This document shows positions 40,783 through 47,507 of a stretch of DNA of 64,000 bases, in pieces (the first letter of the stretch is position 1; every line of letters starts with the position of its first letter). The stretch lies in assembly GCF_017348835.2 (NCBI RefSeq), contig NZ_CP071375.1. One strand, written 5' to 3'. Both the position numbers and the translations under genes were made by a program. Below the pieces are notes generated by a model. That model was given only the letters and a program-made list of their open reading frames with translations, did not search any database and had not been told where the DNA came from. Origin of the DNA: Escherichia coli. GTDB taxonomy: Bacteria > Pseudomonadota > Gammaproteobacteria > Enterobacterales > Enterobacteriaceae.

Positions 40783-40859
<77 letters not shown>

Positions 40860-40916
40860 TTTAGTCCCGGCGCTTGAGCTGCGGTGGTAGTAATACCGCG
40901 TAACAAGATTTGTAGT

Positions 40917-40993
40917 GGTGGCTATAGCTCAGTTGGTAGAGCCCTGGATTGTGATTCCAGTTGTCGTGGGTTCGAATCCCATTAGCCACCCCA
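40917..40993 (+). tRNA. hisR: tRNA-His (anticodon GUG, extra 5-prime G)
   Basis: ggtggctatagctcagttggtagagccctggattGTGattcc...ccacccca. Confidence 0.93.
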
Positions 40994-41013
40994 TTATTAG
41001 AAGTTGTGACAAT

Positions 41014-41100
41014 GCGAAGGTGGCGGAATTGGTAGACGCGCTAGCTTCAGGTGTTAGTGTCCTTACGGACGTGGGGGTTCAAGTCCCCCCCCTCGCACCA
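41014..41100 (+). tRNA. leuT: tRNA-Leu (anticodon CAG)
   Basis: gcgaaggtggcggaattggtagacgcgctagcttCAGgtg... long variable arm, 87 nt. Confidence 0.93.
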
Positions 41101-41142
41101 CGACTTTAAAGAATTGAACTAAAAATTCAAAAAGCAGTATTT

Positions 41143-41219
41143 CGGCGAGTAGCGCAGCTTGGTAGCGCAACTGGTTTGGGACCAGTGGGTCGGAGGTTCG
41201 AATCCTCTCTCGCCGACCA
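41143..41219 (+). tRNA. proM: tRNA-Pro (anticodon UGG)
   Basis: cggcgagtagcgcagcttggtagcgcaactggtttGGGacc...cgccgacca. Confidence 0.93.
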
Positions 41220-45102: not shown

Positions 45103-46299
45103 CTACTGTGGTGGGTTGTTCTGCAACGTTAACATCAAACCGTCGCGACGCATCGCTGCAGCTTCTTCCGGCTTGTGCAGTCTGTCCAGCGCGTCGGCAA
45201 GCCATGCGTAATCGTAGGCGTCCGGACGTTGTTTCAGCGCTGCGCGGAAGGCGAGCGATGCTTCCTGCCATTCTCCGTGCTTCATCAGTGACTGGCCCAG
45301 TGTGCTCCACAACAGCGGGCGATCGCCGACGTTTTTGATTTGCTGGCGCAGCACTTTTTCCAGCTGTTCCGGATTGTTTGTTTTCAGTCGAGGAATCGGC
45401 AGCAGTAGGCGATCGTCGTACTGGCGTTTCAGGCCATCGATGATAATTTGCTGGGCAGTATCATGATCGTCACATTCAATAAGATGTTCCGCCATTGCCA
45501 CCTGCAACGCTACCTGATGACGCGTTTTCCGGCTTTGGTTTTTCCACCAGTTACGCAAACCTTCGCTACCGTTATCGGCACGCGCCTGATCCATCAGGCC
45601 AATCCATGCCTGTTGTTCCAGCATTGCACGATGTTCTTCATCACCAACATGGGCTTTCGCCATTGATGGGATAATATCCAGCAGCGAACTCCATGCACCT
45701 GTGCGGATATACGCCTGTTCCGCCAGACGTAATACTTCCGGATGGCGTGGCGTAACTTCCAGCAGCTTATCCACGCCGTGGCGTGCAGCATGGTTTTCAT
45801 TACGGGCCAGTTGCAGACGTACACGGGTGATTTCTACCGGAATGGTGTCATTGCCGGCCAGCTCCGCTGCGCGTTCCAGATGTTGGTTGGCGCGCGCTTC
45901 ATCACCACGTTGTTGCGCGGCTTCGGCAGCCAGTAGATAGTTCACCACCGGTTGTTCAGCGTGATCGGCATTTTTCGCCATCAGCTTTTCAACTTGCTGA
46001 TAATCGCCTTCCGCCAGTTTCAGCAGCGCCTGTTCGGTCTGCTTACGTGCACGGCGACGCTTACGCCCGACAAACCACCCACGGGTGTGCGCGCCAGTGC
46101 GGAAGATCCGCCGCAGTAGCCACTCAATGGCAAACAGCACTACCATCGCCAGAATCAATATGATCGCCAGGCCCGTGACGCTGGTTTCGATATTGTAGTT
46201 GTCGGTCTGGATCAGCACATAACCCTGATGACCGGCAATCATCGGGCCAACCACGATCCCCGCAATCAGCAACACAAAGAGCAATAACACTTTTAGCAT
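45103..46299 (-). CDS. hemY: HemY, TPR-containing inner-membrane protein of the hem operon
   Basis: 398-aa ORF. Confidence 0.88.
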   Translation of the reverse strand: MLKVLLLFVLLIAGIVVGPMIAGHQGYVLIQTDNYNIETSVTGLAIILILAMVVLFAIEWLLRRIFRTGAHTRGWFVGRKRRRARKQTEQALLKLAEGDYQQVEKLMAKNADHAEQPVVNYLLAAEAAQQRGDEARANQHLERAAELAGNDTIPVEITRVRLQLARNENHAARHGVDKLLEVTPRHPEVLRLAEQAYIRTGAWSSLLDIIPSMAKAHVGDEEHRAMLEQQAWIGLMDQARADNGSEGLRNWWKNQSRKTRHQVALQVAMAEHLIECDDHDTAQQIIIDGLKRQYDDRLLLPIPRLKTNNPEQLEKVLRQQIKNVGDRPLLWSTLGQSLMKHGEWQEASLAFRAALKQRPDAYDYAWLADALDRLHKPEEAAAMRRDGLMLTLQNNPPQ

Positions 46300-46301
46300 G
46301 G

Positions 46302-47507
46302 TTATTCTCCTTGCGGCGCGGCTGCCGGAGTATCAGCTTGCGGTGCAGGTGCAGGTGCAGGTGCAGGTGCAGGTGCAGGTTTAGCTTCCGTTGTCCCCGC
46401 TGCCGGTTGTGCCAGCAGGTTACGCACGCGAGTCTGCATCAGTTTTTCCAGCATCGCCTGGCTTTGCAGGGTTTCCGGAAGATCCATCGAGATATTTTGC
46501 TGGCTTAACTGGTCCACCTCGTCGAGGAACGCTTTGGTGGTGGCATCATCAGTATCGTAGTAAGCACGTACCCAGGTGGAGACGTTCTCCAGCGCCTGGC
46601 GATAAGTCTCTTGCTGGTGACGCGGTACAGCTTGTGCTGCGACCAGCAGGCGAGAGCGAATATTTTCGCGCAGATAGATATCCTGATTTGGCGCTAACAG
46701 CGGTACGGCGGTGTCATCACGACGGCGAATCGTAATGAAGTTGTCCATAAAGTTCTGCCAGCTTTTTTGCAGATTGATACGCCATTCGCTGATGGAACTG
46801 GAAAGCTCTTCACCGTCGGAATCCATCGGCGAACCATCGCTGTCATTATCGGCCAGACGCAGGTTATCTACCTGATTTGAAAGCTGATTAAGCTTAAGGA
46901 TGATGCCGTCATAATCCACCTGCGATACTGCTGAAAGGCTGGCGATATCATCGGTAATTGCCCTACGAACGGTAATCAGACTCGGGTCATTCATATCCGC
47001 CAGGCTGGCGTCTGCACTTTTCAGCAACGCTGCAGCGGTCGTGACGTCCTGATCGCTCCACAGCTTCCGTCCGGCGAGTTTCACCAGAAAATCGGCCTGA
47101 GCCAGCAGCCAGGTTTTAGCATCGCTGCCGGAAATTGTGGCGACCTTTTGTTGGACTTCATCCAACTGTTTTGCCAGCGTTTCTTGCTGACGATTCGCCT
47201 GCTTAAGTTGTGCAGCTTGTTGCTTAATAATGCCTTCCAGCTCGGCTTTTTGGCTCTCCTGGGCTTTTTGCAATGCCGTCAGTTGGTTAGCCAGGGCATC
47301 GCTGGTGGCGGTCTGATTGACGGCCTGTTGTTTACCCCAGCCATACAAACCGACGCCCGCCGCCAGAGCAATAGCGATAGCCACCGCGCTGAGAATCAAT
47401 GCGGTATTGTTCTTACTCTTTTTTTCTGTTGCGACAGGTTGTGACGTGGTGTCCACGGCCTCCCTGGTCTCTTCAACCACGGCGGAGGTTTTTTCTTGTT
47501 CCGTCAT
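46302..47507 (-). CDS. hemX: HemX, membrane protein of the hem operon
   Basis: 401-aa ORF with coiled-coil region and C-terminal (PA)n tract. Confidence 0.85.
46340..46380. repeat. Tandem hexanucleotide repeat (about 6.5 copies of GGTGCA/TGCACC) inside hemX
   Basis: gcggtgcaggtgcaggtgcaggtgcaggtgcaggtgcaggt read directly; encodes [13 protein letters not shown] on the minus strand. Confidence 0.9.

What the first reader, a model, noticed from the sequence alone, without database searches (positions are those of the whole stretch)
46340..46380. Hexanucleotide tandem repeat encoding a (Pro-Ala)n tract in hemX
About 6.5 tandem copies of a 6-nt unit encode [13 protein letters not shown] near the HemX C-terminus. 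Such simple-sequence tracts are slipped-strand hotspots and may vary in copy number between strains, changing the length of a flexible linker.
Basis: seen in the sequence. Interest (0 to 1): 0.25.

Follow-up and report, generated by a model that had tools for sequence, protein, structure and literature searches.

The report
Known E. coli typing repeat in hemX
The six-base repeat near the end of the E. coli hemX gene is real and varies in copy number between strains, but it is a long-known marker (CVN014 / EHC-1) that laboratories already use to fingerprint E. coli isolates, so it is ordinary.

Summary
A perfect (GGTGCA)x6.5 array lies at window 46342-46380. On the minus strand it reads (CCT GCA)x6 + CCG and encodes [13 protein letters not shown], residues 377-389 of the 401-aa HemX.

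The predicted strain-to-strain variation is also correct. Two systematic samples (118 of 5,425 complete E. coli genomes) give 1 to 13 copies, with Nei diversity 0.885. Individual genomes extend the range to 17 copies and to a natural deletion of the whole array.

It is not new. The published primers of MLVA locus CVN014 (generic E. coli MLVA) and of EHC-1 (Japanese EHEC MLVA) both match exactly on either side of the array. The literature calls CVN014 the most variable locus of its scheme.

The tract lies in a 38-residue C-terminal tail, after the Pfam HemX domain (130-363) and after the last predicted helix (ends at 366). The tail is modelled as low-confidence coil and is not conserved in distant homologues. 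It is therefore a disordered tail rather than a linker between two domains.

The unit is 6 nt, so every allele stays in frame and there is no on/off switching. Predicted accessibility of the hemY ribosome-binding site does not change with copy number.

Best reading: a near-neutral slippage-driven microsatellite, already known. Interest is low.

The parts
46342..46380 (-). Perfect hexanucleotide array: (GGTGCA)x6.5 on the + strand, A+(CCTGCA)x6+CC on the coding strand. This is the VNTR known as CVN014 / EHC-1.
46341..46379 (-). Codons for HemX residues 377-389, [13 protein letters not shown]: six CCT-GCA pairs plus CCG.
46302..47507 (-). hemX coding sequence (401 aa plus stop). The Pfam HemX domain covers aa 130-363. 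A predicted transmembrane-plus-stalk helix covers aa 36-126.
   Evidence: annotation under the match.
46305..46418 (-). C-terminal tail of HemX (aa 364-401). It is Pro/Ala-rich, modelled as coil from residue 367 at low confidence (10-residue block means 61-44 from residue 371), and not conserved in distant homologues.
46257..46280 (+). Binding site of the CVN014 forward primer (TCCCCGCAATCAGCAAMACAAAGA), exact match, inside hemY.
   Evidence: Primer from PMC8143711; match.
46384..46403 (-). Binding site of the CVN014 reverse primer (GCAGCRGGGACAACGGAAGC), exact match. The amplicon 46257-46403 is 147 bp, and (147-111)/6 gives allele 6.
46317..46334 (+). Binding site of the EHC-1 reverse primer (CGCGGCTGCCGGAGTATC), exact match.
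   Evidence: Primer from PMC10062581 S5 Table; match.
46408..46427 (-). Binding site of the EHC-1 forward primer (GTGCGTAACCTGCTGGCACA), exact match.
46297..46312 (-). hemX-hemY junction. The Shine-Dalgarno AAGGAG of hemY lies in the last hemX codons, followed by the TAA stop, CC and the hemY ATG. The array ends 29 nt upstream of this Shine-Dalgarno sequence.

Best explanation
This is the E. coli variable-number tandem repeat known as CVN014 (Lindstedt generic E. coli MLVA) and EHC-1 (Japanese EHEC MLVA). It is a pure 6-nt microsatellite, CCTGCA, inside the 3' end of hemX. Copies are gained and lost by replication slippage (slipped-strand mispairing). Because the unit is two codons, every change adds or removes one Pro-Ala pair and keeps the reading frame. 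The tract sits in a disordered, unconserved, length-tolerant C-terminal tail of the membrane-anchored protein HemX, predicted to be periplasmic. Length changes are therefore tolerated and are probably close to neutral, so the locus drifts quickly and is useful for strain typing. Shown here: the identity of the locus, its polymorphism, in-frame behaviour, position after the last folded element, and natural loss of the tract. Inferred: slippage as the mechanism, near-neutrality, and periplasmic location of the tail.
For: Identity. Both CVN014 primers and both EHC-1 primers match exactly on either side of the array. The amplicon size fits the published CVN014 formula and gives allele 6.

Polymorphism. 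In 118 systematically sampled genomes the copy counts are 1:1, 2:21, 3:5, 4:7, 5:18, 6:20, 7:13, 8:6, 9:6, 10:7, 11:7, 12:4, 13:3, with Nei D 0.885. Sequence-verified perfect arrays have 1, 6, 12 and 17 copies.

Speed relative to point mutations. Genomes with identical flank scores carry 6-13 copies (rows H75-H82; rows H134-H142). O157:H7 genomes carry 5, 7 or 12.

Literature. CVN014 is called 'the most variable locus' of GECM-10 (PMC3877011). It has Nei D 0.83 and alleles 4-15 in non-O157 STEC (PMC3519732). It accounts for most single-locus variants within ST131 (PMC3407997).

Length-dependent instability, as expected for slippage. For EHC-1 in O157, clades whose mode is 5 or 6 have 81-86% of isolates at the mode, while clades whose mode is 11 or 12 have 45-60% at the mode and ranges of 3-14 (PMC10062581 S3). 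Slipped-strand mispairing is the accepted mechanism for 6-bp E. coli VNTRs (PMC3777172). The array strands can also form imperfect hairpins as single-stranded DNA: -5.9 and -7.3 kcal/mol at 6.5 copies, -14 at 12 copies.

Tolerance. The Pfam domain ends at residue 363. The AlphaFold2 model (91-sequence alignment, mean pLDDT 83) has its last helix at 348-366 and then coil, with 10-residue block means 61, 59, 56 and 44 from residue 371. Tails of 134 family representatives have a median length of 18 aa (IQR 9-39) and no conserved motif. Strain NCTC11023 has lost the whole array plus 15 nt and keeps an intact frame.
Against: Neutrality is inferred, not measured. No isogenic comparison of alleles exists in the material I could reach. 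The same hexamer array occurs at the orthologous position in Citrobacter. This could mean that a Pro-Ala tract is favoured rather than merely tolerated. No allele above 17 copies was seen. That could reflect selection against long tails or just a contraction bias. Most allele counts were derived from alignment spans, with only six E. coli genome sequences read directly, and the genome collection is biased toward clinical isolates.
Confidence: 0.9

Rival explanations
1. Adaptive length tuning. The Pro-Ala tract is a semi-rigid spacer, like those of OmpA, TonB or the E2 lipoyl linkers. Its length would set how far the HemX C-terminal end reaches in the periplasm, and selection would favour different lengths in different lineages.
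For: Pro/Ala-rich tails with (PA)n or (PAA)n tracts recur at the same place in Escherichia and several Citrobacter species. Lineages have characteristic modal copy numbers.
Against: Only 12 residues follow the tract, and no folded element or conserved motif lies beyond it. Distant homologues mostly have short or unrelated tails. Salmonella has no array. One natural isolate lacks the tract entirely. Copy number varies widely among genomes with identical flanking sequence. Lineage-specific modes are also expected from shared ancestry alone.
Confidence: 0.06
2. Regulatory role at the RNA level. Array length would change mRNA structure upstream of hemY and so tune hemY translation, or the HemX:HemY ratio, through translational coupling.
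For: The array ends 29 nt upstream of the hemY Shine-Dalgarno sequence, which lies inside the last hemX codons. The stop codon and the ATG are 2 nt apart. The array RNA can pair with itself.
Against: In partition-function folding with 0-20 copies, the predicted unpaired probability of the hemY Shine-Dalgarno sequence (0.00) and AUG (0.64) did not change at all. The array pairs with itself, not with the ribosome-binding site. Terminating hemX ribosomes would unwind this region anyway. No promoter-like or terminator-like site lies nearby.
Confidence: 0.03
3. Phase-variable contingency locus. Copy-number change would switch hemX on and off, as in the simple-sequence contingency genes of Haemophilus or Neisseria.
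For: It is a highly mutable simple-sequence repeat inside a coding region.
Against: The unit is 6 nt, so slippage never shifts the frame. All retrieved pure-array alleles (1-17 copies) and the deletion allele keep the hemX frame, which is annotated as an intact CDS in each record. The array is not in a promoter.
Confidence: 0.005
4. The apparent variation is an assembly or sequencing artefact of a low-complexity tract.
For: One assembly (P276M) shows an imperfect array together with a frameshifted hemY, which suggests sequence errors.
Against: Fragment-sizing PCR studies from several countries, independent of any assembly, report the same range of alleles at this locus. The length differences are exact multiples of 6 nt in 118 of 120 sampled rows; the two exceptions are both strain P276M.
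Confidence: 0.005

Closest known systems
CVN014, locus of the generic E. coli MLVA (GECM-7/GECM-10; Lindstedt et al. 2007, Lobersli et al. 2012, as cited in PMC8143711, PMC3877011, PMC5217547)
   Same: It is the same locus. Both primers match exactly at 46257-46280 and 46384-46403. The unit is 6 bp and the offset is 111 bp, which gives allele 6 for this window. The allele range and high diversity match the published values.
   Different: Nothing differs at the DNA level. None of the MLVA papers held in the library names hemX as the gene: searches for 'hemX' with 'VNTR' or 'MLVA' returned only an unrelated Salmonella paper.
EHC-1, locus of the Japanese EHEC O157/O26/O111 MLVA system (Izumiya et al. 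2010 primers, listed in PMC10062581 S5 Table)
   Same: It is the same array, amplified with different primers that match exactly at 46317-46334 and 46408-46427. Published O157 alleles (modes 5, 6, 7, 11, 12) agree with the 5, 7 and 12 copies seen in O157:H7 genomes here.
   Different: Only the primer positions differ: the amplicon here is 111 bp, against 147 bp for CVN014. I found no paper in the library stating that EHC-1 and CVN014 are the same locus. That equivalence rests on the primer matches made here.
Other 6-bp VNTRs of E. coli O157:H7 (O157-3, -9, -10, -17, -19, -25, -37)
   Same: They have the same unit length, the same presumed slipped-strand mechanism, and mutation behaviour that depends on array length (PMC3777172).
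   Different: They lie at different genomic sites. Several are restricted to O157 or give null alleles. The hemX array was found in 5,425 of 5,426 complete E. coli genomes.
Pro/Ala-rich spacers in bacterial envelope and multienzyme proteins (OmpA hinge, TonB, E2 lipoyl-domain linkers). This comparison comes from general knowledge.
   Same: Alternating Pro-Ala composition, which is expected to give an extended, non-globular segment.
   Different: Those segments join two folded or functional parts. Here the tract is followed by only 12 unconserved residues and no folded element, and it can be deleted in nature.

Membership tests
MLVA locus CVN014 | Flanked by the two published CVN014 primer sequences in convergent orientation | tested here: met
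   Forward primer matches exactly at 46257-46280 (+) and reverse primer at 46384-46403 (-). Each is the only match in the window and none is expected by chance.
MLVA locus CVN014 | 6-bp repeat unit with a 111-bp non-repeat offset in the amplicon | tested here: met
   The amplicon is 147 bp, which equals 111 + 6x6. The formula (PS-111)/6 comes from PMC8143711.
MLVA locus CVN014 | Copy number polymorphic among E. coli isolates | tested here: met
   1-13 copies in 118 sampled genomes, plus 17 copies and a null allele elsewhere; Nei D 0.885.
MLVA locus EHC-1 | Flanked by the two published EHC-1 primer sequences | tested here: met
   Exact matches at 46408-46427 (-) and 46317-46334 (+).
Slipped-strand microsatellite (VNTR) | Head-to-tail pure repeats of a short unit, with alleles that differ by whole units | tested here: met
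   TRF reports 100% matches. Span differences are multiples of 6 nt in 118 of 120 sampled rows. Retrieved arrays are perfect.
Slipped-strand microsatellite (VNTR) | Mutation by replication slippage, measured directly (rate per generation, dependence on mismatch repair, independence from RecA) | not testable with these tools
   Only indirect support. Variability rises with array length in O157 clades, and slipped-strand mispairing is the mechanism accepted in the literature.
Phase-variable contingency locus | A repeat change shifts the reading frame or alters promoter spacing, so that expression switches on and off | tested here: not met
   The unit is 6 nt and lies inside the ORF. All retrieved pure-array alleles and the deletion allele stay in frame. 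No promoter-like site is present.
Inter-domain Pro/Ala linker | Connects two folded domains | tested here: not met
   The Pfam HemX domain ends at residue 363. The last predicted helix ends at 366. Residues 367-401 are modelled as coil, with block-mean pLDDT falling from 61 to 44 after residue 370. Only 12 residues follow the tract.
HemX family (Pfam PF04375) | Significant match to the family profile above the gathering score | tested here: met
   E 3.9e-108, 360.9 bits against a cut-off of 25.9, covering profile positions 2-235 of 236.
Uroporphyrinogen-III C-methyltransferase (the RefSeq product name) | A methyltransferase domain or fold | tested here: not met
   Pfam finds no methyltransferase family. 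There is no sequence relative in the PDB. The model is all-helical and has no significant structural match in the PDB. The literature describes HemX as a distant Mic60 homologue.

The most novel reading that the evidence does not exclude
The length of the HemX Pro-Ala tail might not be neutral. HemX is described as a distant homologue of the crista-organising protein Mic60, and loss of hemX lowers gentamicin sensitivity (PMC12282077). The fast-mutating tail could therefore act as an in-frame 'tuning knob' that adjusts a periplasmic interaction, or HemX/HemY output, and so adjusts respiration-linked traits between lineages. The recurrence of the same array in Citrobacter would then reflect selection for evolvability at this site.
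Probability: 0.05. Interest if true: 0.45.

Novelty: already known. Interest (0 to 1): 0.08.

Why it matters
The practical value is already realised. This array is one of the most discriminating markers in two E. coli MLVA schemes used for outbreak tracing. Three small additions come from this work. (i) The link between the marker names and the gene and protein context: the array lies in the disordered C-terminal tail of HemX, 29 nt upstream of the hemY ribosome-binding site. (ii) The demonstration, from primer matches, that CVN014 and EHC-1 are the same locus. (iii) The observation that the same tail carries 6-nt or 9-nt Pro/Ala repeat arrays in Citrobacter. None of this changes how the locus is understood. 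If tail length had a phenotype it would be a modest example of in-frame repeat tuning in a poorly characterised envelope protein.

Tried and rejected
1. Full-text searches for 'hemX' with 'VNTR' or 'MLVA' returned only a Salmonella paper that mentions a hemX SNP. The link to MLVA had to be made through primer sequences.

2. The native 259-nt query gave split or partial alignments for alleles that differ a lot from 6 copies (rows H51-H60). I replaced it with repeat-less queries, so that the span in each genome gives the array length directly.

3. I looked for the locus under O157 names. PMC3768571 gives no primers, and Vogler et al. 2006 (PMC1482962) is not held in the library. Whether the array also carries an 'O157-n' name remains unknown.

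4. I tested whether copy number alters hemY ribosome-binding-site accessibility. Folding with 0-20 copies showed no change, so I rejected this.

5. I scanned for promoter-like or terminator-like sites around the array and found none.

6. I looked for a solved structure or structural relative of HemX to place the tail and found none significant.

7. I considered and rejected a frameshift phase-variation reading, because the unit is 6 nt.

8. I considered an antisense ORF (46391-46735, + strand). It does not include the array and has no support, so I did not pursue it.

Full report
**1. The observation**

Window 46342-46380 holds a perfect tandem array. Tandem Repeats Finder gives period 6, 6.5 copies, 100% matches, no indels, score 78 and unit GGTGCA (sequence).

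The array lies inside a minus-strand ORF, 46302-47507, of 401 aa. That ORF matches Pfam HemX (PF04375) at E 3.9e-108. RefSeq annotates the matching place as hemX in the listed genomes, and 5,425 of 5,426 complete E. coli genomes have a match.

On the coding strand the array reads AAA (CCT GCA)x6 CCG and encodes [15 protein letters not shown], residues 377-389, 12 residues before the stop.

It is the only array in the 64-kb window with period >=4 and >=4 perfect copies. About 6e-14 such arrays would be expected by chance.

**2. Does copy number vary?**

It varies a great deal. A megablast of the native 259 nt already showed matched spans of 235 to 325 bp in steps of 6.

To measure this cleanly I removed the array from the query. 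Two repeat-less queries (440 nt and 324 nt) each align to both flanks in 5,425 genomes, so span minus query length gives the array length. Each search listed 60 genomes taken at even steps down the ranking.

Of the 120 rows, 118 differ from the query by an exact multiple of 6 nt. The pooled counts are:

| Copies | Genomes |
|---|---|
| 1 | 1 |
| 2 | 21 |
| 3 | 5 |
| 4 | 7 |
| 5 | 18 |
| 6 | 20 |
| 7 | 13 |
| 8 | 6 |
| 9 | 6 |
| 10 | 7 |
| 11 | 7 |
| 12 | 4 |
| 13 | 3 |

The median is 6 and Nei diversity is 0.885.

I fetched seven regions and read them directly:
- Strain M23917 has a perfect array of 1 copy.
- AUSMDU00014361 and O157:H7 Z1811 each have 12 copies.
- Strain A1, from an echidna, has 17 copies.
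- NCTC11023 has lost the whole array plus the next 15 nt, leaving ...[12 protein letters not shown] in frame.
- P276M, the odd row in both samples, has an interrupted array and a frameshifted hemY. This looks like poor assembly.

Genomes whose flanks score identically still carry anything from 6 to 13 copies (rows H75-H82; rows H134-H142). O157:H7 genomes carry 5, 7 or 12 copies. The array therefore changes much faster than the surrounding sequence.

**3. It is a known marker, under two names**

The library papers on generic E. coli MLVA name a 6-bp locus, CVN014, as the most variable of the scheme (PMC3877011; PMC3519732, Nei D 0.83 and alleles 4-15; PMC5217547; PMC3407997).

PMC8143711 prints the primers and the sizing formula (PS-111)/6. 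The forward primer matches the window exactly at 46257-46280 (+) and the reverse primer at 46384-46403 (-). The amplicon is 147 bp, which gives allele 6.

The copy numbers in O157:H7 genomes also resembled the published values for locus EHC-1 of the Japanese EHEC MLVA (PMC10062581 Table 2). Its primers, from S5 Table, match exactly at 46408-46427 (-) and 46317-46334 (+). CVN014 and EHC-1 are therefore the same array, and both are the array in this finding.

The EHC-1 data show the length dependence expected of slippage. O157 clades whose mode is 5 or 6 have 81-86% of isolates at the mode. Clades whose mode is 11 or 12 have 45-60% at the mode, with ranges of 3-14.

Slipped-strand mispairing is the mechanism accepted for 6-bp E. 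coli VNTRs (PMC3777172). As single-stranded DNA the array can also form an imperfect hairpin through its TGCA palindromes: -5.9 and -7.3 kcal/mol at 6.5 copies, and -14 kcal/mol (z = -5.2) at 12 copies. This could stabilise slipped intermediates, but that is inference.

**4. Where the tract sits in the protein**

The Pfam HemX domain covers residues 130-363. An AlphaFold2 model built on a 91-sequence alignment of family representatives has mean pLDDT 83. It shows three parts:
- a long helix at 36-126 (membrane anchor plus stalk);
- a helical domain whose last helix is 348-366;
- no secondary structure in 367-401, with 10-residue block means 61, 59, 56 and 44 from residue 371.

In 134 family representatives the stretch after the position equivalent to residue 363 has a median length of 18 aa (IQR 9-39). 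It is low-complexity and has no conserved motif.

The tract is therefore part of a disordered, lineage-specific C-terminal tail, not a linker between two domains. Lysines before the membrane helix suggest an N-in topology, which would put the tail in the periplasm. That is an inference I did not test.

**5. Relatives**

Close relatives carry the same kind of tract at the same place.
- The Citrobacter freundii complex has (GCA CCT)x5, and protein variants with 3, 4 or 5 PA pairs exist.
- C. rodentium has x4.
- C. sedlakii instead has a 9-nt unit, GCA CCT GCC (PAA), in 1-3 copies, giving proteins of 394, 397 and 400 aa.
- The Salmonella sequences in the hit list (P0054, P0093) have no array.

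The last codons (...APQGE) are conserved. They contain the hemY Shine-Dalgarno sequence.

**6. Alternative readings**

*A frameshift on/off switch* is excluded by the 6-nt unit. All retrieved pure-array alleles and the deletion allele are in frame.

*An effect on hemY translation* was tested by partition-function folding of the hemX-hemY junction with 0-20 copies. The unpaired probability of the hemY Shine-Dalgarno sequence (0.00) and AUG (0.64) did not move, and the array pairs with itself. No promoter-like or terminator-like site is nearby.

*Adaptive tuning of tail length* cannot be excluded and gets some support from the recurrence in Citrobacter. Several results make it unlikely:
- no folded element or conserved motif lies beyond the tract;
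- a natural deletion allele exists;
- Salmonella lacks the array;
- copy number scatters widely on identical flanks.

*An assembly artefact* is excluded by the PCR fragment-sizing literature.

**7. Context of HemX**

RefSeq still names the product 'uroporphyrinogen-III C-methyltransferase'. No methyltransferase domain is detected. There is no sequence relative in the PDB. The all-helical model has no significant PDB structural match.

A preprint describes HemX as a distant Mic60 homologue that lacks the mitofilin domain. A CRISPRi study reports that a hemX deletion is less sensitive to gentamicin. Neither paper mentions the tract.

**8. Verdict**

The feature is a well-known, routinely used VNTR, so novelty is nil and interest is low.

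Remaining uncertainties:
- near-neutrality is inferred, not measured;
- allele frequencies come from a sample of a clinically biased collection;
- most allele sizes come from alignment spans, with only six E. coli genome sequences read directly.

Noticed in passing
L009 (NZ_LS483297.1, E. coli NCTC11023), locus 440-515: A natural null allele. The whole CCTGCA array and the next 15 nt (PQADT) are deleted in frame, leaving ...[16 protein letters not shown] on this strain would give an amplicon shorter than the zero-repeat offset.
   Followed up: yes
L006 (Citrobacter freundii complex), L008 (C. rodentium), L007 (C. sedlakii); 3' end of hemX in each: The same hexamer (GCACCT/CCTGCA) is tandemly repeated x5 and x4 at the orthologous site in Citrobacter. 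C. sedlakii instead has a 9-nt unit, GCACCTGCC (Pro-Ala-Ala), in 1-3 copies (394/397/400-aa proteins). The HemX tail looks like a recurrent repeat hotspot and a possible VNTR marker in Citrobacter.
   Followed up: partly
window 46302-47507 (hemX): The RefSeq product name 'uroporphyrinogen-III C-methyltransferase' is not supported. There is no methyltransferase domain, the predicted structure is all-helical and membrane-anchored, and there is no PDB relative by sequence or fold. A preprint calls HemX a distant Mic60 homologue.
   Followed up: partly
window 46297-46312 (hemX stop / hemY start): The hemY Shine-Dalgarno AAGGAG lies in the last hemX codons, and the stop and ATG are 2 nt apart. In mRNA folding the Shine-Dalgarno sequence is predicted fully paired (unpaired probability 0.00), which suggests that hemY depends on translational coupling to hemX.
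   Followed up: partly
protein P0001 (485 aa, single ENA contig): A HemX variant with an 84-residue internal tandem duplication whose junction falls in the Pro-Ala tract (…EAKPA|HQEETYRQ…). Its second tract is interrupted (PAPAPAPTPAPAPAP). It could be a real duplication seeded at the repeat or a misassembly.
   Followed up: no
L004 (NZ_CP044293.1, E. coli P276M): An interrupted array (…CCTGCTGCA…CCACCTGCA…) next to a hemY annotated as frameshifted with an internal stop. This is probably assembly error rather than biology.
   Followed up: partly
window 46334-46339 (codons just 3' of the array on the coding strand): A common polymorphism directly after the array: GCT (QADT, this window and O157:H7) versus GGT (QGDT, strains A1, AUSMDU00014361, M23917).
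   Followed up: no
E. coli genome collection: One of 5,426 genomes has no match to the hemX-hemY junction. A few genomes have two places, and one place is on a plasmid.
   Followed up: no
window 1941-5538 and 40783-41219: tRNA-Glu, then tRNA-Asp and tRNA-Trp (an arrangement typical of an rRNA operon), and a tRNA-Arg/His/Leu/Pro cluster. Together with hemCDXY these fit the K-12 rrnC to cyaA region of the chromosome (map position recalled from general knowledge, not tested).
   Followed up: no
window ~46794-46841 (HemX residues 223-238): An acidic Asp/Ser-rich loop (…[15 protein letters not shown]…) inside the HemX domain is modelled at low confidence (pLDDT below 50 at 223-227). It is a second probably flexible segment.
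   Followed up: no
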